From an uncultured Deferribacteraceae bacterium (GTDB lineage: Bacteria; Chrysiogenota; Deferribacteres; Deferribacterales; Mucispirillaceae), in assembly GCA_947041165.1 (NCBI GenBank), contig CAMRCY010000003.1:24257-88256 (forward strand): a stretch of DNA of 64,000 nucleotides, written 5' to 3'. Positions 51,224-64,000 of this stretch are shown here, piece by piece; the stretch's first letter is position 1, and each line of letters begins with the position of its first letter. A program made the position numbers and the translations under genes. The notes below the pieces were generated by a model, which saw only the letters and a list, made by a program, of their open reading frames with translations, had not been told where the DNA came from and ran no database searches.

Positions 51224-52163
51224 CTTGTTTGCGATTTGGTTACGGTTTACAACTTGGTTATGGTTTGTGATTTGGTTACGGTTCGTAAATTGATTATGTT
51301 TTGCAAATTGGTTATGGTTTGCAAATTGGTTATGGGTTGCAACTTGGTTACGGTTCGTAAATTGGTTATGGTTTATGATTTGATTATGGTTTGCAAATTG
51401 GTTACGGTTCGTAGGTTGGTTATGGTTTGCAAATCGGTTATGGTTCGTAAATTAATTATGGTTCGAAACTTGGTTATGGTTCGCAAATTGGTTATGGTTC
51501 GTAAATTGATTATGGTTTGCAAATCGGTTACCATTCGTAGGTTGGTTATGGTTTGTGATTTGATTACGGTTTGCAACTTGGTTATGGTTTGCGATTGGGT
51601 TATGGTTCGTAAATTGATTATGGTTTGCTAATCGGTTATGGTTTGCAAATTGGTTACCGTTTGCAGGTTGGTTATGATTTGCGATTGGGTTACAGTTTGC
51701 AGGTTGGTTATGGTTTGCAAATTGGTTATGGTTCGAAACTTGGTTATGGTTCGCAAATTGGTTATGGTTTGCAACTTGGCTATGGTTCGTAAATTGATTA
51801 TGGTTTGCAAATCGGTTATGGTTTGCAAATTGGTTACCGTTTGCAGGTTGGTTATGATTTGTGATTTGGTTACGGTTCGCAGGTTGGTTATGGTTTGCAA
51901 ATTGGTTATGGTTCGCAAATTGGTTATGGGTTGCGATTGGGTTATGTTTGTAAATTGGTTACCGTTTGCAGGTTGGTTACGGTTTACAACTTGGTTATGG
52001 TTCGTAAATTGATTATGGTTCGAAACTTGGTTACGGTTTGCGATTGGGTTATGGTTCGCAAATTGGTTACCGTTTGCAACTTGGTTACGGTTCGCAACTT
52101 GGTTACGGTTCGCAAATTGGTTACCGTTCGCAACTTGGTTATGGTTCGTAGGTTGGCTATGTT
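51224..52163. repeat. 18-bp tandem repeat array x ~51 (consensus ggttatggtttgcaaatt)
   Basis: Read directly; ~940 bp of 18-bp units with point variants; at least one 17-bp unit near 51950 shifts the phase. Confidence 0.95.
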
Positions 52164-52176
52164 TTATAAAAACCAT
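51628..52176 (-). CDS. possible Asn/Gln-rich hexapeptide-repeat protein encoded by the 18-bp array (frame interrupted as sequenced)
   Basis: ATG at 52176, 50 nt after flagellar rod gene stop; MVFIKHSQPT then (N-Q-[FVI]-[ATS]-N-[HRG])n; uninterrupted NQ frame would end at ~51212 (~320 aa); other frames are also open, so coding status is uncertain. Confidence 0.3.
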   Translation of the reverse strand: MVFIKHSQPTNHNQVANGNQFANRNQVANRNQVANGNQFANHNPIANRNQVSNHNQFTNHNQVVNRNQPANGNQFTNITQSQPITNLRTITNLQTITNLRTVTKSQIITNLQTVTNLQTITDLQTIINLRTIAKLQTITNLRTITKFRTITNLQTITNLQTVTQSQIITNLQTVTNLQTITD

Positions 52177-52804: not shown

Positions 52805-53060
52805 ATATAAATTATAAGTATATTATGGATAGTTTGCAATGATTTTAATCAAAGTCACAATTTAGATGTTTAATATCAAGCAGATTAAGAGTTGAAAATA
52901 TATATAATATCAAGTTTCTTAAAGTTTGTATCACGTGAAATATACTTTAGCAGATAGTGATTTTTTCCTAATATGTAGAAGCAGTAAATGGAGGATAATA
53001 GAAAGCAGTTTAAACTTGTTAACAATAGTAACTTATACTGAAATCTTAGGAGCGAACAAT

Positions 53061-53708
53061 ATGGAAATCAATGGAAATAGTGGTAGCATTAACCGATATA
53101 ATCAAAAACCACAGAACGCAGAAAACACACAGAATAAAGAAACAGAGGAAACAGCAGAAAGCCGTGCTGCGTCTGAAGCAAAAGAATTAGCAAAGAAAGA
53201 AAAGATGAAACTTTTCAAAAAAGATCTTCATAAAGAGATAAGTGCTATTTATGGCAAAAGCTCATCATCGTTACTATCAAATTCAGTACACATTACAGAT
53301 GAAGCTTTAGAAAAAATGCAATCAGATCCAAAATTTAAAGATGAAATGATGGAGGCGTTACGCAAAGAGGTTGAAAGCTCATACAATTTATCAAACAAAG
53401 TGAATGTGACAACAAAAATTAGTATAGATGGATACTCTTCATACTCAGCGAATGTTTTTAAAACTGACAGCAACAAAATGATTGCCGATAAAGAAGCAAT
53501 AGCGAATAAAAAAGCTAGAGGTGCGTTATTCTACAGTGCAGACGAGAAAAAGAAAGAAGTATCAGCAAAAAAAACAGATAACAGTGGAAAATCTTGGTTA
53601 GATATAAAACGTGAACAACAGATATATGAAATGGGTATCCGAGAAAAAAATGTAATCGAGAGATCACATAAACGAACATCATTTATAAGAACATTCACAA
53701 GTAGTTGA
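53061..53708 (+). CDS. hypothetical charged protein (K/E/S-rich)
   Basis: Start set to MEINGNSG (ATG 53061) with AGGAG 8 nt upstream; ORF-track upstream extension lacks RBS; no recognisable domain. Confidence 0.4.
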   Translation: MEINGNSGSINRYNQKPQNAENTQNKETEETAESRAASEAKELAKKEKMKLFKKDLHKEISAIYGKSSSSLLSNSVHITDEALEKMQSDPKFKDEMMEALRKEVESSYNLSNKVNVTTKISIDGYSSYSANVFKTDSNKMIADKEAIANKKARGALFYSADEKKKEVSAKKTDNSGKSWLDIKREQQIYEMGIREKNVIERSHKRTSFIRTFTSS

Positions 53709-53876
53709 TTTGACTGATATAGGTGATAATATCTGATAGAACGGATCTACTTATATAGTGTATAAAATTTAATATATATATAGTTTGCGATGCTCTTAAT
53801 CAAATTTATAATTTAGATATTTATTATAAGTTAGATTAAGAGCGTTTTAATTTTATTATTTATTTTTAGATATTTA

Positions 53877-55322
53877 TTATTTAATATTAAACTTTCTAAA
53901 AGCTTGTATCGTTTGAAAGATACCGTAACCGATAGCGATTTTACCTAAGATGTAGAAGAAGTAAAAGGAAAATAAGCGTAAACGATTTAATAAAGCCATA
54001 TCAAAATCAAACGTATTTATAGGTGTCATTTTAATTTCTTTACCAACTTCTTTCATTAAGTCAAAATTAATAGGGATTAAATAATTAAAAAAACCTTTCA
54101 TAAATGATGAATTCATGACAATTAAAAGACTCATCGCTATTATTGCAAAAAACATAAACGGATAGTTCATAACAATAGCTCGTTTCTTTTTAAAAATAAG
54201 TAGTAACACAAAAGGGTAAGCTACTTGTATGATACCAACTACTAGATAAATAGTAACATTTTTAACATATATCGAAGCATACGCAGTAAAGAAAAAAATG
54301 AACCCTGTTATAAAAGTAAACAGAACCGCTTGAATCCAGTTCTGTCCATGATCATTAGACAACCGACTAAGTATGAGAGAAAGACGTTCTGCAAATATCT
54401 CTAAAAACTTTTTATTACTTTTATTGTCCTTAAGTTCATCTTCATATAAATCTTTTTCTTTTGCTTTATATTCTAATGCTTTAATTGTATTTGATCTTGC
54501 AAGCTCTTCATGTTTTAAAAATCTTGCAGTATCGGAATTTTCAGGTTCTGCTTCAAAATTAACCCGACTTACAACGCCACCACCAATAACACTAGAACCT
54601 TTGAAATTTATTTTATTTACTTTTACATTATTAAAATCAATACGTCCATCTATTACTGTATTTGTAATTTGTATTTTAGAGTTTTCACCACATTCTTTAA
54701 ATTTTTCATTTACTTCATCATAATTAATATAAGCAAAAAGTATGTAACCTTGCCCCTTTTCAAAAACTATATTATTAAATTCTAGTTTATAACTAAATTT
54801 TATATCAGAAAAAATTGTTTTACCTGAATGGATTGAACTTGAAAAATCAGACAACTCTTCAAAAACAGAGTACATAAAGTTAACTCCAATATTAAAAGTA
54901 GTGAATTGGAAATTAGTGTTCCCTTTAAATGTAGAGCTTATAAAGCTAGCACTGTTATTAAATATAGAAGCCATAAAATCAACAGAAGTGTTAAAGATAA
55001 GTTTTAAAAAATCAGCTTTCATGCGAAATAAGATATTCCTACAGTTCACTATAAGTGGACAGATGAGAATATCTTCTCCCTTTACTCTATTGAAATCTAA
55101 GCTAAACACATTATTAATGATACTCTTAAAGTCAAATAGAAAAATAACTTCCCTTCTTAACAATAGATTGTCCTTGCTACCTATATTAAGGATTAAATTT
55201 TCATATTTTATATTTTCTCTTTTTACACCTTTTGATATCAGTTTAACTCTCTGATCTTCTAAATCATAGTTAAGCCAATCAATTAATTCTTGTTCGGTAT
55301 TATATACTAAAGGTTGTACCAT
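53877..55322 (-). CDS. pentapeptide-repeat-like protein with C-terminal multi-TM domain
   Basis: 481 aa; central stretch with F/L/I every 5th residue (ADFLKLIFNTSVDFMASIFNNSASFISSTFKGNTNFQFTTFNIGVNF...), then 3-4 hydrophobic helices. Confidence 0.45.
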   Translation of the reverse strand: MVQPLVYNTEQELIDWLNYDLEDQRVKLISKGVKRENIKYENLILNIGSKDNLLLRREVIFLFDFKSIINNVFSLDFNRVKGEDILICPLIVNCRNILFRMKADFLKLIFNTSVDFMASIFNNSASFISSTFKGNTNFQFTTFNIGVNFMYSVFEELSDFSSSIHSGKTIFSDIKFSYKLEFNNIVFEKGQGYILFAYINYDEVNEKFKECGENSKIQITNTVIDGRIDFNNVKVNKINFKGSSVIGGGVVSRVNFEAEPENSDTARFLKHEELARSNTIKALEYKAKEKDLYEDELKDNKSNKKFLEIFAERLSLILSRLSNDHGQNWIQAVLFTFITGFIFFFTAYASIYVKNVTIYLVVGIIQVAYPFVLLLIFKKKRAIVMNYPFMFFAIIAMSLLIVMNSSFMKGFFNYLIPINFDLMKEVGKEIKMTPINTFDFDMALLNRLRLFSFYFFYILGKIAIGYGIFQTIQAFRKFNIK

Positions 55323-57077: not shown

Positions 57078-57533
57078 ATGAGTGAAGAACTTGAAAGTAA
57101 GATAACGACTGAAGAAATCCATAAAGAAATTGATTTAATACAGTCTTGTATTAGCCGAATGGCACAAAACTCATTTATGGTTAAAGGTTGGTATATTAGC
57201 ATTATTGTTGTTATACTTGCATTACTAACTGAAAAAATCAACTTCGCAATGATTTCAATAACATTAGCGGTTGTCACAATATTATTTTGGTATCTTGATA
57301 GTTTCTTCTTAACAACTGAAAAAAAATATAGAGAAATATATAGTTGGGCTCTGCAAGAACGTCCTAAGAATAACAAAGAATTTCTTTACGAATTAAACCC
57401 ACATTTATTTAAAGATAAAATTAAAAAAACAGACAATATCTTAAGAACAATGTTTACTCTAACTTTGTTTCCATTCTATGGTATCCCGCTAACTATCATT
57501 GCAACAATTAACATATATTCATATATTTGTTAA
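57078..57533 (+). CDS. small membrane protein (2-3 TM), candidate effector partner of adjacent TIR-like protein
   Basis: 151 aa; N-terminal amphipathic helix, TM1 WYISIIVVILALL, TM2 MISITLAVVTILFWYL, C-terminal hydrophobic segment; no recognisable enzymatic domain. Confidence 0.45.
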   Translation: MSEELESKITTEEIHKEIDLIQSCISRMAQNSFMVKGWYISIIVVILALLTEKINFAMISITLAVVTILFWYLDSFFLTTEKKYREIYSWALQERPKNNKEFLYELNPHLFKDKIKKTDNILRTMFTLTLFPFYGIPLTIIATINIYSYIC

Positions 57534-57614
57534 TTAATATCTATTGTTTTTAAAGTTGACATATTGTTTACTTGCATGATATAAACAATTATAAATTGCT
57601 CTGGAGGAAAAGAT

Positions 57615-58229
57615 ATGAGTAAAAGACATAAGGTGTTTATTAGTTATTACCATAATGACGACCAAAAATATAAAAATGAATTATTGAGTCTAAATAAACG
57701 TTACAATTTTTTTGATGATTATTCTGTTGATGAAAATAATATAGATGACACAAATAAATCATCTGAGCAAATAAGACACATTATTCGTGACGAGTATATA
57801 AAAGATGCAACTGTTCTTATTCTTCTTTGTGGAGAAAACACTAGGAAAAGAAAACATATCGATTGGGAAATACATGCAGCAATGTATGATACAGACAAAA
57901 ATCCCAAGCTAGGCATATTAATAATCAATCTACCAACAATTACACAAGCTCAACGTGTAGGGTCTGGAGAGGACAAAGCTTTACTATCAAATAATTTTGA
58001 GAGCTTGCCAAGTGTTGGTACTCGAGAAGAACTTAAGCAGAAATTCCAATATATGCCAGACAGAATAATTACTAACTTTAATAAAAATGATGTTAAAATT
58101 TCCGTTGTTAATTGGGCAATAATATCTCAGTCCCCTGCAATAGCAAGTGATTTAATACATAATGCATTTTCAAGACGAACTACCAATAAATATGACCATT
58201 CTTGTGAAATGCGAAAAAACAATACTTAG
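57615..58229 (+). CDS. TIR-like domain protein (DUF1863 / ThsB-like)
   Basis: 204 aa; N-terminus MSKRHKVFISYYHNDDQKYKNELLSL... matches the K.(V/F)F(I/F)S(Y/F).H.D start of MTH538-type TIR-like/ThsB proteins; DATVLILLCGENT...WEI second block. Confidence 0.55.
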   Translation: MSKRHKVFISYYHNDDQKYKNELLSLNKRYNFFDDYSVDENNIDDTNKSSEQIRHIIRDEYIKDATVLILLCGENTRKRKHIDWEIHAAMYDTDKNPKLGILIINLPTITQAQRVGSGEDKALLSNNFESLPSVGTREELKQKFQYMPDRIITNFNKNDVKISVVNWAIISQSPAIASDLIHNAFSRRTTNKYDHSCEMRKNNT

Positions 58230-58245
58230 TTACTTGACCCTTTAT

Positions 58246-58959
58246 TTACAGCTGACGCCATAGTCCGACAACCTTGCCGATGATGGTTACTTTCTTCTGA
58301 TCGATTATATATGTTTTGAAATTGGAATTATCTGACTTTAATAGATATAGATTCTTGTCGGAATAAAACTCTACACGCTTAATCAATATACCATCAATGC
58401 CGATCTGTGCATCGTTGATCCTTACTGCGTACAATGAATCGTTTATAACCGTATCAATCTCGCTTCTTGATACAGTTATATAATCGCCCTTTAAAAAATA
58501 TGGCAACATATAATCTGTCTTGATACGTACAGAAAATGGTCGCTCGCTCTCATCACCATACTCAAACGATGATTTCGATATGCTATGCCATGCAATGATC
58601 TCGCCATCATTTATAACATCTCCGATATCTGCCTCGCCCTCAGATGTGTCATACATCGGGATCCATGACGACCCACTAACACTGTCTGGCTCATTCACCG
58701 AATTAACCAATGATGGAGATAGTAACAGAAACTTATTATCCGTGTAACTAAACTCCTCACCCATTAAATAATTATACGAAATATTGTATCGCTTAGAAAT
58801 ACGCTGAATAACCGCAGCCTGTGGCAAACACTTATTATGTATCCATTTACTCACAGCAGATTTCGTCACAGCAACCTCTTCCGCTAGTTGCGTATAACTT
58901 ATCTTACGTAGCTTTAATACCTGTGCAAGCCTATCGCCAAACTTCAATTCATTTGTCAA
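58246..58959 (-). CDS. XRE-family HTH + S24 peptidase (LexA/cI-like autocleaving repressor)
   Basis: 237 aa; N-terminal HTH (LRKISYTQLAEEVAVTKSAVSKWIHNK), C-terminal S24 LexA-like domain (..GDYITVSR...GILIKRV). Confidence 0.8.
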   Translation of the reverse strand: MTNELKFGDRLAQVLKLRKISYTQLAEEVAVTKSAVSKWIHNKCLPQAAVIQRISKRYNISYNYLMGEEFSYTDNKFLLLSPSLVNSVNEPDSVSGSSWIPMYDTSEGEADIGDVINDGEIIAWHSISKSSFEYGDESERPFSVRIKTDYMLPYFLKGDYITVSRSEIDTVINDSLYAVRINDAQIGIDGILIKRVEFYSDKNLYLLKSDNSNFKTYIIDQKKVTIIGKVVGLWRQL

Positions 58960-58987
58960 TTTCTATCTCTCTTTTGAAAAATTATAT

Positions 58988-59002
58988 TTGTACATATGAC
59001 AA
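58988..59002. promoter_or_regulatory. near-palindromic candidate operator TTGTACATATGACAA upstream of the XRE/S24 repressor gene
   Basis: 29-43 nt upstream of repressor ATG; 13/15 palindromic around ATAT core; second palindrome tacatgta at ~59052. Confidence 0.35.
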
Positions 59003-59254
59003 TAATATAGCTAATATTTAAATATTGCAAGTAAATTATTTACATGTAGTCAACTTTTTGACCAAAAATAGCTTTTGTAAACTCTAAGTTTATTACATCT
59101 AAATATATAAATATTTGAAGATACACACCCCATCTAACATTTAAATTGATCCATACATATAATTTCTTAGCATATCAAATCTATCTAAGACATTCGCTCA
59201 CCTTAAATATTAATAATTTTTTACATATAATTTCTTCGCATATCAAGTCTAAAA

Positions 59255-63329: not shown

Positions 63330-64000
63330 TGCTTGTTAAGTGTGATTGGTTAGTAAGTATGGTTGTTTGACTTGGTGCGATGGGTTAGCTCGGTGCGATT
63401 GCTTATTAAGTGTAATTATTTATTAAGCGTGATTACTTGTTAAGTGTGATTGTTTAGTTAACTATAATTAATCCAGCTTGTTGTGATTTGCTTCACAGGT
63501 GTATTTGCTCGGCTTGTTCGATTGTGTAAAGAGTGTGATTGCTTGTTAAATAGATTACTTATTAATTGTAATTACTTATTAAGCATGACTACTTGTTAAG
63601 TGTGATTTTTAGTTAGCTATAATTAACCCAGCTTGTTGTGATTTGCTTCACAGGTGTATTTGCTCGGCTTGTTAGATTGTGCAAAGAGTGTGATTGTTTA
63701 TTAAGCGTGACTACTTGTTAAGTGTGATTGTTTAGTTAGCTATAATTAACCCAGCTTGTTGTGATTTGCTTCGCAAGTGTATTTACTCGGCTTGTTAGAT
63801 TGTGCAAAGAGTGTGATTGCTTATTAAGTGTAAGTATTTATTAAGCGTGACTACTTGTTAAGTATGATTGTTTAGTTAACTATAATTAATCCAGCTTGTT
63901 GTGATTTGCTTCGCAAATGTATTTACTTGGCTTGTTAGATTGTGCAAAGAGTGTGATTGCTTGTTAAATAGATTACTTATTAAGTGTAATTATTTATTAA
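63330..64000. repeat. complex ~133-148-bp tandem repeat x >=4 with nested 17-bp sub-repeats, runs to window end
   Basis: Conserved core tataattaa[c/t]ccagcttgttgtgatttgcttc.ca..tgtatttgctcggcttgtt.gattgtg.aaagagtgtgattg recurs at ~63459, 63607, 63740, 63888; variable part made of 'ttattaag[c/t]gtgattac' units. Confidence 0.85.

What the first reader, a model, noticed from the sequence alone, without database searches (positions are those of the whole stretch)
57078..59002. Candidate novel defence module: ThsB-like TIR-like protein plus small TM protein next to a cI/LexA-like repressor
A 204-aa protein opens with the MTH538/ThsB-type TIR-like start (KVFISYYHNDDQKY). It sits 81 bp downstream of a 151-aa protein that has only 2-3 TM helices and no enzymatic domain. 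The pair converges on an XRE-HTH/S24 autopeptidase repressor, which has a near-palindrome (TTGTACATATGACAA) in its own promoter. Known Thoeris systems pair ThsB with a large SIR2 or Macro-TM ThsA. Here the partner is too small for either, so this may be a minimal TIR-signal plus membrane-effector abortive-infection system, possibly SOS- or repressor-controlled. The neighbourhood (pentapeptide-TM protein, orphan class V PLP enzyme, hypotheticals, flanking direct repeats) looks accessory rather than core.
Basis: partly seen in the sequence, partly recalled or inferred. Interest (0 to 1): 0.8.

Follow-up and report, generated by a model that had tools for sequence, protein, structure and literature searches.

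The report
Type V Thoeris anti-phage gene pair
The two genes are a real anti-phage defence pair, a TIR sensor enzyme plus a small three-helix membrane protein that probably kills or arrests the infected cell, but this pairing was already catalogued in 2023-24 and described as "type V Thoeris" in 2025, and the neighbouring repressor does not appear to belong to it.

Summary
Window 57078-57533 encodes a 151-aa protein with three hydrophobic helices. Window 57615-58229 encodes a 204-aa ThsB-type TIR protein (Pfam ThsB_TIR, E=1.2e-19). A cI-like HTH/S24 gene converges on them.

The pair is not new. The small protein matches PADLOC's untested candidate PDC-M50A (E=6.7e-35). It is homologous to the small gene inside a locus that the Yirmiya et al. 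preprint (Dec 2025) lists as type V Thoeris (ThsB plus the three-helix effector ThsF).

The small-protein family is large, with about 4,600 clusters at 50% identity, and has no Pfam model. In 80 species genomes it has a TIR gene within about 3 kb in 75, and directly adjacent on the same strand in 60. It occurs across many phyla, on plasmids, next to BREX and inside type I restriction-modification operons.

The TIR protein keeps the catalytic glutamate (E85). It is 57% identical over its full length to the ThsB of a classic SIR2-SLOG type I Thoeris, so the effector was probably swapped while the signal, probably 3'cADPR, was kept.

The repressor accompanies the pair nowhere else, and its palindrome is weak.

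Verdict: a new member of a known kind, of modest interest.

The parts
57078..57533 (+). thsF-like effector gene (A, 151 aa). It belongs to the PADLOC PDC-M50A family. It is a small protein with three hydrophobic helices and nearly invariant motifs next to the membrane: HKEIDLIQSCIxRMAxNSFxxKGW and FWYLDxFFLxTEKxYR.
   Evidence: ORF. PADLOC PDC-M50A at E=6.7e-35. No Pfam domain in this protein or in 36 relatives. AlphaFold2 pLDDT 92.4, helical hairpin plus C-terminal helix. Conserved columns. BLASTP E=3e-12 to the 155-aa gene of a locus that the preprint lists as type V. phrog_19896 at E=2.8e-26.
57534..57614 (+). 81-bp spacer between A and B. It holds a promoter-like site: TTGACA at 57556-57561, an 18-nt spacer, TG-n-TATAAA at 57577-57585, and a GGAGGA ribosome-binding site at 57604-57609. 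B may therefore have its own promoter.
   Evidence: Read directly from the sequence. The scanner did not list this site because it requires T at position 6 of the -10 hexamer. Function is inferred and was not tested.
57615..58229 (+). thsB (B, 204 aa). It has a ThsB-type TIR domain (about residues 5-107) with the conserved catalytic-site Glu85 in the motif DWEI. A conserved C-terminal half (about 108-204) is presumed to be the phage-sensing part.
   Evidence: Pfam ThsB_TIR at E=1.2e-19. PADLOC ThsB1 at 1.4e-10 and PDC-M50B at 8.6e-10. E85 and W84 are invariant in 35 homologues. AlphaFold2 pLDDT 87.7. Foldseek hits to solved ThsB and plant TIR structures with probability 0.97-1.0. 57% identical over its full length to P0213, the ThsB of a SIR2_2+STALD type I Thoeris.
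58246..58959 (-). Neighbouring cI-like repressor gene (237 aa, HTH_3 plus an S24-like domain). It is listed because the finding includes it. On the evidence here it is not a component of the defence pair.
   Evidence: Pfam. phrog_4 at E=2.2e-27. No homologue next to A-family genes in 80+ other loci; only two weak matches to the HTH part, each more than 3 kb away. Contig breaks at window 58218 and 58272. No Ser at the LexA Ser119 position.
58988..59002 (.). Imperfect palindrome TTGTACATATGACAA, just upstream of the repressor start and next to a weak promoter-like site on the minus strand (59030-59002). It could be the repressor's own operator, but this is unproven.
   Evidence: Sequence. Promoter-like site TTGCAA-17-TATTAT. 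No related copy near A or B, and near-matches in the window are at chance level.

Best explanation
The two genes are a two-gene Thoeris-type anti-phage signalling system of the kind recently named type V: a ThsB TIR sensor enzyme plus the small three-helix membrane effector ThsF (PADLOC candidate PDC-M50).

Proposed mechanism:
1. The 204-aa ThsB detects infection through its conserved non-TIR C-terminal half.
2. Its TIR domain, with catalytic Glu85, converts NAD+ into a cyclic ADP-ribose signal. The signal is most likely 3'cADPR.
3. The signal binds oligomers of the 151-aa membrane protein at the highly conserved, positively charged cytosolic segments that flank the transmembrane hairpin.
4. 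The effector then disrupts the membrane, and the infected cell dies or stops growing before phage are released.

Shown here:
- the domain identities;
- conservation of the catalytic residue;
- the fold models;
- the strong genomic linkage of the two families;
- the defence-island and plasmid contexts;
- homology of A to genes in loci that the preprint lists as type V.

Taken from the preprint: phage defence by two Bacillus type V systems, 3'cADPR production, and the ring-shaped AlphaFold3 model with charged pockets.

Inferred, not tested: the signal identity in this system, the binding site, and activity in this host.

The adjacent cI-like repressor is a neighbour, not a component.
For: **Identity of the two proteins**
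- B is a ThsB TIR (E=1.2e-19). E85 is invariant and the model has a TIR fold.
- A matches PDC-M50A (E=6.7e-35).

**Linkage of the two families**
- In 80 species genomes encoding an A relative, 75 have a TIR-like ORF within about 3 kb. In 60 it is adjacent on the same strand within 200 bp.
- Of the 75 nearest neighbours, 41 match Pfam ThsB_TIR, 36 match TIR_2 and 8 match TIR. The Pfam-negative neighbours that were checked match the PADLOC ThsB model PDLC00430 at 1e-62 to 1e-75.
- Two of the five loci scored as lacking a TIR ORF (Methanocorpusculum, L089 and L091) show a TIR-like stretch about 2.7 kb away by tblastn.

**Defence and mobile contexts**
- After a BREX system.
- Inside type I restriction-modification operons.
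- On conjugative Klebsiella, E. coli and Campylobacter plasmids and on Priestia, Vibrio and haloarchaeal plasmids.

**Link to type V Thoeris**
- Table S1 of the preprint lists TIR genes 2620551307 and 2620551309 as 'DUF2270 - Type V'. Both are 100% identical to the two TIR genes of locus L103.
- The only gene between those two TIR genes is a 155-aa PDC-M50A member (E=2.9e-31), and it is homologous to A.
- A second type V TIR in the table (2620964761) is 79% identical to a Klebsiella plasmid TIR that sits next to a PDC-M50A gene.
- 36 of the 42 type V TIRs compared, including both validated ones, have homologues among TIR genes near A-family genes, most of them directly adjacent.

**Signal**
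- B's 57%-identical, full-length relative P0213 is paired with a SIR2_2+STALD ThsA, which is the type I architecture.
- Type I and the validated B. thuringiensis type V system both use 3'cADPR.
Against: - No A-family member reaches Pfam PF10028 (DUF2270), the label the preprint gives ThsF, even at E<=10. The equation of A with ThsF therefore rests on the catalogued loci, not on a shared Pfam hit.
- The sequence of the experimentally validated B. thuringiensis ThsF was not available for direct comparison.
- In the preprint, the second validated type V system (Bacillus sp. 1NLA3E) was not triggered by added 3'cADPR, so the signal may differ between members.
- Nothing here shows that the window's copy is expressed or active.
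Confidence: 0.8

Rival explanations
1. This is a three-part, previously unknown module in which the cI/LexA-like HTH-S24 protein controls the TIR plus membrane-protein pair, tying abortive infection to SOS or repressor cleavage.
For: - The repressor gene ends 16 bp from thsB.
- Its HTH weakly resembles the defence-associated regulators capH and RmrA in PADLOC.
- A 19-nt sequence over the promoter-like site upstream of thsB (57567-57585) recurs in the repressor's own promoter region (59017-59035, minus strand).
- Other defence operons are known to be under HTH regulators; this point rests on general knowledge.
Against: - No HTH/S24 homologue accompanies A-family genes in 80 species loci, the metagenome loci or the plasmids.
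- The gene is convergent, so it shares no regulatory region with the pair.
- Contigs break exactly at the junction between thsB and the repressor. This places the repressor on the side that stays with yicC.
- The position of the LexA serine nucleophile is not occupied by Ser.
- The palindrome is imperfect and at chance level.
- The statistic for the 19-nt match is circular, because the pattern was derived from the two sites themselves.
Confidence: 0.07
2. Same system, different chemistry. The pair works as a type V-like Thoeris, but ThsB makes a signal other than 3'cADPR, such as 2'cADPR, canonical cADPR, or a molecule not yet described.
For: - B's TIR domain also resembles TIRs of cluster 2741407742 in the preprint. 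That cluster includes type VI (2'cADPR) ThsBs: compare the ga0209396_100023224 sequence HKVFISYYHKDDQYY... and 38.5% identity to 2620551309.
- The Bacillus sp. 1NLA3E type V system did not respond to 3'cADPR.
Against: - B's closest full-length relatives (57% identity) pair with a SIR2+STALD type I ThsA, whose SLOG domain senses 3'cADPR.
Confidence: 0.2
3. Reversed roles. The TIR protein is an NAD+-depleting effector, and the small membrane protein is a sensor, anchor or antitoxin-like partner rather than the killer.
For: - Some bacterial TIR domains act as NADase effectors, for example in CBASS, Pycsar and TIR-Argonaute systems and in SpbK (abstract of PMC12847820).
- A has no recognisable enzymatic or known ligand-binding domain.
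Against: - B is of the ThsB clade. Its near relatives serve a separate SIR2 effector, so they act as signal makers.
- One A family pairs with many unrelated TIR clades and with multi-TIR operons. That is the pattern of a common effector served by interchangeable sensors.
- In the validated type V system, added 3'cADPR alone was toxic to cells carrying the system.
Confidence: 0.05
4. The pair is not a defence system. It is a lineage-specific housekeeping or membrane-biology gene pair that happens to contain a TIR fold.
For: The flanking genes are housekeeping types: class V aminotransferase, YicC, Band 7, Tex and flagellar genes.
Against: - The distribution is patchy across more than 12 phyla and archaea.
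- The pair occurs on conjugative plasmids and a phage-plasmid.
- It is embedded in restriction-modification and BREX loci.
- It is present in PHROGs.
- Homologous systems gave experimental phage defence.
Confidence: 0.03

Closest known systems
Type V Thoeris (ThsB + ThsF), Yirmiya et al., bioRxiv 10.64898/2025.12.03.692087
   Same: - A two-gene unit made of a ThsB TIR protein and a small effector with three membrane helices.
- A is homologous to the small gene inside loci that the preprint's Table S1 labels type V.
- The phylogenetic spread is the same, including many Bacteroidota.
- The TIR clades that partner A-family genes mirror those listed for type V.
   Different: - The preprint annotates ThsF as Pfam DUF2270 (PF10028). 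Neither A nor any relative tested reaches that model by hmmscan.
- B belongs to a ThsB clade whose nearest relatives serve type I effectors, not to the clades of the two validated type V systems.
- No experiment exists for this member.
PADLOC phage defence candidate PDC-M50 (Payne et al., bioRxiv 10.1101/2024.01.29.577857)
   Same: - A matches all four PDC-M50A models, the best at E=6.7e-35. B matches PDC-M50B at E=8.6e-10.
- Candidates of this class were found by being embedded in BREX, DISARM or type I restriction-modification systems. The related loci L007 and L103 show exactly that.
   Different: - PDC systems are untested predictions with no proposed mechanism.
- B scores slightly better on a generic ThsB model (1.4e-10) than on PDC-M50B.
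Type I Thoeris (ThsB + SIR2-SLOG ThsA)
   Same: - B is 57% identical over its full length to the ThsB of a SIR2_2+STALD system.
- The expected signal, 3'cADPR, is probably the same.
   Different: - The effector is a 151-aa membrane protein, not a 475-aa NADase.
- No SIR2 or SLOG gene is in the neighbourhood.
Type II Thoeris (Macro-TM effector) and type VII Thoeris (SLATT effector); CBASS 2TM effectors
   Same: A small-molecule signal opens or assembles a membrane-disrupting effector. A consists of an N-terminal cytosolic helix, a transmembrane hairpin and a following helix. I recall SLATT-type effectors as having a similar layout; this comparison rests on memory and was not tested here.
   Different: - A has no Macro domain and no Pfam SLATT hit in any of 37 members.
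- It gives only a marginal hit to a PADLOC CBASS '2TM' effector model (E=0.013).
- A has a third, C-terminal helix.

Membership tests
Thoeris (TIR-signalling defence systems in general) | A ThsB-type TIR protein that retains the catalytic glutamate | tested here: met
   Pfam ThsB_TIR at E=1.2e-19. E85, in the motif DWEI, is invariant in 35 homologues. The model matches solved ThsB and TIR structures.
Thoeris (TIR-signalling defence systems in general) | A conserved adjacent effector gene that forms an operon-like unit with thsB across unrelated genomes | tested here: met
   75 of 80 species loci have a TIR-like ORF within about 3 kb of the A homologue, and 60 of 80 have it adjacent on the same strand. 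Pfam and PADLOC confirm that these neighbours are TIR proteins.
Thoeris (TIR-signalling defence systems in general) | Infection-dependent production of an ADPR-derived signal that activates the effector | not testable with these tools
   This needs infected-cell lysates, LC-MS and a ThsA reporter assay.
Type V Thoeris (ThsB + ThsF) | The effector is a small protein with three membrane-spanning helices | tested here: met
   Hydrophobic segments at about 36-52, 56-77 and 128-150. The AlphaFold2 model shows helices at 11-51, 56-97 and 131-150.
Type V Thoeris (ThsB + ThsF) | The effector is homologous to genes that the defining study assigns to type V | tested here: met
   L103 is the IMG locus of the type V TIR genes 2620551307 and 2620551309, both 100% identical. 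The gene between them is a PDC-M50A member at E=2.9e-31 and matches A at BLASTP E=3e-12. The Klebsiella plasmid pair gives a second case.
Type V Thoeris (ThsB + ThsF) | The effector matches Pfam PF10028 (DUF2270), as the preprint annotates it | tested here: not met
   hmmscan at E<=10 found no PF10028 hit for A, for 36 relatives, or for the effectors of L096, L097, L100, L101, L103 and L105. The gene in L103, a locus the preprint itself lists as type V, fails the same test. The label therefore probably rests on a more sensitive method or on other members of the cluster.
Type V Thoeris (ThsB + ThsF) | Homology to the experimentally validated ThsF of B. thuringiensis DAR 81934 | not tested
   The effector sequence is not held by any tool available here. 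The only evidence is indirect: the validated ThsB is 47% identical to a TIR gene 30 bp from an A homologue (L085), and 45-53% identical to plasmid TIR genes, three of which (Priestia, Terribacillus and C. botulinum; 45-49% identical) sit next to PDC-M50A genes.
PADLOC PDC-M50 | Both component models are matched by adjacent genes | tested here: met
   A matches PDC-M50A at E=6.7e-35. B matches PDC-M50B at E=8.6e-10.
Type I / type II Thoeris | A SIR2-SLOG effector (type I) or a Macro-TM effector (type II) next to thsB | tested here: not met
   The neighbours are a class V aminotransferase, A, and the HTH/S24 repressor. No SIR2, SLOG or Macro domain was found.
SLATT effectors (type VII Thoeris / CBASS) | A match to a Pfam SLATT model | tested here: not met
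   None of 37 A-family members shows a SLATT family at E<=10.
LexA/cI-type self-cleaving repressor acting as regulator of the pair | An HTH plus an S24 domain with the Ser-Lys dyad | tested here: inconclusive
   The HTH_3 and Peptidase_S24 domains are present. The Lys is kept, in IKRV. The LexA Ser119 position aligns to KTDYM, which has no Ser. That alignment is weak, and the LexA sequence was taken from memory.
LexA/cI-type self-cleaving repressor acting as regulator of the pair | Conserved linkage of the regulator gene with the defence genes | tested here: not met
   Only two weak matches to the HTH part, each more than 3 kb away, in 80 loci. None in the metagenome or plasmid loci.

The most novel reading that the evidence does not exclude
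In this lineage the cI-like HTH/S24-like protein may have been recruited as a local regulator of thsB. The route would be the 19-nt sequence shared between the promoter-like site upstream of thsB (57567-57585) and the repressor's own promoter region (59017-59035). Expression of the Thoeris sensor would then be coupled to a prophage-type or stress switch.
Probability: 0.06. Interest if true: 0.5.

Novelty: new member of a known kind. Interest (0 to 1): 0.25.

Why it matters
This is one more natural example of a recently described anti-phage system, so it adds modestly to what is known. Three points could be useful.

1. It shows a ThsB that is 57% identical to type I ThsBs but is wired to the small membrane effector. 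That is a clean case of effector swapping on a probably unchanged signal. It makes the pair a convenient test of whether ThsF-type effectors read 3'cADPR.

2. The effector family is large, about 4,600 clusters at 50% identity. It spans bacteria, archaea, plasmids and phages, has no Pfam model and matches no solved fold specifically. Its nearly invariant motifs next to the membrane (H15-W38 and F70-R95) are obvious candidates for the signal-binding pocket and could guide mutagenesis.

3. The 'DUF2270' label used for ThsF is not reproducible with Pfam's own model on the catalogued members tested here. This matters to anyone annotating these systems automatically.

Tried and rejected
- **Pfam on A and 36 relatives, plus six further effectors.** No family was found, in particular no DUF2270 and no SLATT. 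The weak recurrent DUF3278 hits (best E=0.005) were judged to be membrane-helix noise.
- **AlphaFold database fold libraries.** They were not available.
- **Sequence and profile searches of the PDB with B and with the repressor.** No hits.
- **Literature search for 'PDC-M50'.** Nothing found.
- **Whether the preprint's separate '3TM' effector class is the A family.** Its TIRs matched only a distant TIR fragment in two Methanocorpusculum loci, so probably not.
- **Looking for strains that lack the pair, using the Tex and repressor proteins as anchors.** Only the same arrangement or truncated contigs turned up.
- **Organism identification.** It failed. There are no names in the cluster tables and no RNA family hits in the window. 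The source is a 31% GC metagenome scaffold from a flagellated bacterium.
- **Promoter scan.** The number of sites equals the chance expectation, 15 against 15.0, so promoter calls rest on reading the sequence.
Full report
**What is in the sequence**

- A lies at 57078-57533 (+) and encodes 151 aa.
- B lies at 57615-58229 (+), 81 bp downstream, encodes 204 aa and begins MSKRHKVFISYYHNDDQKY.
- A 237-aa ORF on the opposite strand (58246-58959) ends 16 bp from B's stop codon.

B matches Pfam ThsB_TIR at E=1.2e-19. The 237-aa protein matches HTH_3 and Peptidase_S24. A matches nothing in Pfam.

A has three hydrophobic stretches, at about 36-52, 56-77 and 128-150. Its AlphaFold2 model is confident (pLDDT 92.4). 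It shows a long helical hairpin (11-51 and 56-97) followed by a short linker region and a C-terminal helix (131-150).

The 'palindrome' TTGTACATATGACAA exists at 58988-59002. It is imperfect, and sequences this close to it occur in the window no more often than chance predicts.

**What the pair is**

PADLOC's library identifies A as PDC-M50A (E=6.7e-35, with all four models hit). It identifies B as ThsB and PDC-M50B. PDC entries are untested 'phage defence candidates'. They were found because they are embedded in BREX, DISARM or type I restriction-modification systems (bioRxiv 10.1101/2024.01.29.577857).

The A family is large.
- A word-indexed search found 289 relatives, all unnamed.
- A profile search of 1.84 billion cluster representatives found 4,618 clusters at E<=0.001 and 2,601 at E<=1e-10.
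- None of 37 members has a Pfam domain.

Their alignment shows strikingly invariant segments on the cytosolic side of the transmembrane hairpin: HKEIDLIQSCIxRMAxNSFxxKGW before the first helix enters the membrane, and FWYLDxFFLxTEKxYR as the second leaves it.

**Linkage of A with TIR genes**

Metagenome contigs carrying A relatives show three arrangements.
- A followed by three or four TIR genes.
- A followed by a 159-aa ThsB directly after a BREX system and before a RES gene.
- A 32%-identical A relative lying among three ThsB genes, one of which is 56% identical to B.

I fetched 80 species-representative genomes that encode an A relative. They span Bacillota, Bacteroidota, Omnitrophota, Planctomycetota, Akkermansia, Elusimicrobia, Cyanobacteria, Pasteurellaceae, Hyphomicrobiales and Methanocorpusculum.
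- An iterated TIR profile, seeded with published ThsB domains, found a TIR-like ORF within about 3 kb in 75 of the 80. In 60 it was adjacent on the same strand within 200 bp.
- Pfam confirmed ThsB_TIR in 41, TIR_2 in 36 and TIR in 8 of the 75 nearest neighbours.
- The Pfam-negative 250-300-aa neighbours that were checked match the PADLOC ThsB model PDLC00430 at 1e-62 to 1e-75.
- Of the five loci scored as lacking a TIR ORF, the two Methanocorpusculum loci have a TIR-like stretch 2.7 kb away. The other three have Roc-COR GTPase proteins directly upstream. These belong to a family that carries TIR domains in other loci.

On plasmids, A relatives sit beside TIR genes in Klebsiella, E. coli, Campylobacter, Priestia, Terribacillus, Vibrio and Halorhabdus, and on a Clostridium botulinum phage-plasmid. 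A also has a PHROG family. This is the signature of a mobile defence module, not of a housekeeping locus.

**It has already been described**

A preprint from December 2025 (Yirmiya et al., bioRxiv 10.64898/2025.12.03.692087) surveyed TIR-containing operons and named Thoeris types V to XI.

Type V pairs ThsB with ThsF. The preprint describes ThsF as a small protein with three membrane helices and annotates it as DUF2270. Its findings on type V are as follows.
- Systems from B. thuringiensis DAR 81934 and Bacillus sp. 1NLA3E defended B. subtilis against phage.
- Their ThsBs made 3'cADPR on infection.
- Added 3'cADPR was toxic to cells carrying the B. thuringiensis system.
- AlphaFold3 modelled ThsF as a membrane-spanning ring with positively charged pockets between protomers.
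- Type V is especially common in Bacteroidota.

To connect A to ThsF, I retrieved the locus of two TIR genes that the preprint's Table S1 lists as 'DUF2270 - Type V' (IMG 2620551307 and 2620551309).
- Both TIR domains are 100% identical to the two ThsB genes of locus L103.
- The single gene between them is a 155-aa PDC-M50A member (E=2.9e-31).
- That gene aligns with A at BLASTP E=3e-12.

Two further results point the same way.
- A second type V TIR in the table (2620964761) is 79% identical to a Klebsiella plasmid TIR that lies next to a PDC-M50A gene.
- Of 42 type V TIRs compared, 36 have homologues among TIR genes near A-family genes, most of them directly adjacent. Both validated systems are among the 36: B. 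thuringiensis at 47% over 251 aa and 1NLA3E at 45%.

I therefore file the window's pair as a type V Thoeris system.

One caveat applies. Neither A, nor its relatives, nor the L103 gene itself reaches Pfam PF10028 by hmmscan, even at E<=10. The preprint's DUF2270 label must rest on a more sensitive comparison or on other cluster members. I could not obtain the validated ThsF sequences for a direct test.

**The TIR protein**

B's homologues are full length (about 204-212 aa) and 51-62% identical, apart from a 94%-identical strain variant. Glu85 and Trp84 of the DWEI motif are invariant. The AlphaFold2 model (pLDDT 87.7) retrieves solved ThsB and plant TIR structures at probability 0.97-1.0, though with modest E-values.

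One 57%-identical relative is found on more than 1,000 contigs and is named as coming from Acholeplasmatales. It is followed at a 2-bp gap by a 475-aa SIR2_2+STALD protein, which is a classic type I Thoeris arrangement.

So the same ThsB lineage serves either a SIR2-SLOG NADase or the small membrane protein. Type I uses 3'cADPR, and so does the validated B. thuringiensis type V system. 3'cADPR is therefore the most likely signal here.

This is an inference. B's TIR also resembles a cluster that includes 2'cADPR-producing type VI ThsBs, and one validated type V system did not respond to 3'cADPR.

**Most likely mechanism**

1. ThsB senses infection through its conserved C-terminal half (about residues 108-204).
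2. Its TIR domain converts NAD+ to a cyclic ADPR isomer.
3. The signal binds oligomeric A at the conserved, basic and aromatic cytosolic surface next to the membrane (K16, R27, K36, W38, W71, Y84, R85, Y88 and R95).
4. The assembly breaches the membrane, and the infection aborts.

Domain identities, residue conservation, gene linkage and genomic context are shown here. Defence activity, signal production and the ring model come from the preprint, for homologues. The binding site and the activity of this particular copy are inferred.

The A-B spacer contains a good promoter-like site (TTGACA, 18 nt, TG-n-TATAAA) and a GGAGGA ribosome-binding site. B may therefore be transcribed on its own as well as with A.

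**The repressor**

The repressor is a phage cI-type protein (phrog_4 at E=2e-27). I found no evidence that it belongs to the system.
- No homologue accompanies A-family genes in any other locus.
- It is convergent with the pair.
- Two independent metagenome contigs break at the junction between B and the repressor, at window 58218 and 58272. This suggests that the strain-variable sequence lies on the A-B side and that the repressor stays with yicC.
- An alignment with E. coli LexA (sequence from memory) keeps the catalytic Lys but puts no Ser at the nucleophile position, so self-cleavage is doubtful.

One loose lead remains. A 19-nt sequence over the promoter-like site upstream of B recurs in the repressor's promoter region. 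The pattern was derived from those two sites, so the statistic is circular.

**Verdict**

The pair is a new member of a known kind: type V Thoeris, also catalogued as PADLOC PDC-M50. Its interest is modest. It lies mainly in the clean effector swap relative to type I, and in the sharply conserved motifs of an effector family that still lacks a Pfam model and a solved structure.

Noticed in passing
window 51227-52146: A tandem array of 51 copies of an 18-bp unit (GTTTGCAAATTGGTTATG, 75% matches). It reads as hexapeptide repeats in long ORFs on both strands, for example the 182-aa N/Q/T-rich ORF at 51628-52176 (-). The array differs between strains: contig L002 aligns at only about 80% and at many offsets.
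   Followed up: partly
window 63393-63967: A tandem array of about four copies of a 123-155-bp unit, just downstream of the Tex gene. It contains 17-bp sub-repeats (TGTGATTGCTTGTTAAG). It gives no Rfam match and its function is unknown.
   Followed up: partly
window 58218-58272: Two independent metagenome contigs end or start here, at the junction between thsB and the repressor. L110 starts at 58218 and L002 ends at 58272. This looks like an assembly-graph branch point and hints at strain-level variation on the thsF-thsB side.
   Followed up: partly
window 59131-59183 and 59199-59251: A 53-nt direct repeat (75% identity, 68 bp start to start) in the spacer between the repressor gene and yicC. 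Both copies contain ACATATAATTTCTTnGCATATCAA. It could be a duplicated promoter or operator region.
   Followed up: no
window 57567-57585 (+) and 59017-59035 (-): The 19-nt sequence TTTACTTGCAWKATWTWAA occurs once over the promoter-like site upstream of thsB and once in the repressor's promoter region. These are the only two matches in the window. The pattern was derived from these two sites, so its significance is unclear.
   Followed up: partly
window 52824-53013 versus 53775-53990: Two stretches of 68 and 52 nt are repeated at 77-79% identity about 950-980 bp apart. They flank the 260-aa ORF at 52926-53708. It does not bracket the defence pair.
   Followed up: no
window 53877-55322 (-): The 481-aa protein with pentapeptide repeats and transmembrane helices is 543 aa in the otherwise 99%-identical contig L002. 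This 1.3-kb stretch is the one part of L002 that does not align to the window, so the gene is strain-variable.
   Followed up: no
loci L067, L070, L074, L081, L086, L088, L090, L092-L095 (Bacteroidota and others): In these genomes the A-family gene sits immediately after a 370-1070-aa LRR / Roc-COR GTPase protein. That protein often carries a TIR domain, so this is a much larger sensor wired to the same small effector.
   Followed up: partly
loci L103 and L105: The A-family gene and its ThsB gene or genes are embedded, with an AbiEi/AbiEii pair or an AbiEi gene alone, between hsdM and hsdS/hsdR of a type I restriction-modification operon.
   Followed up: partly
loci L089 and L091 (Methanocorpusculum): The archaeal A-family genes lie next to an 823-aa SIR2_2/TPR protein on the opposite strand. 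A TIR-like stretch about 2.7 kb away escaped ORF-based detection and may be a pseudogene or a short ORF.
   Followed up: no
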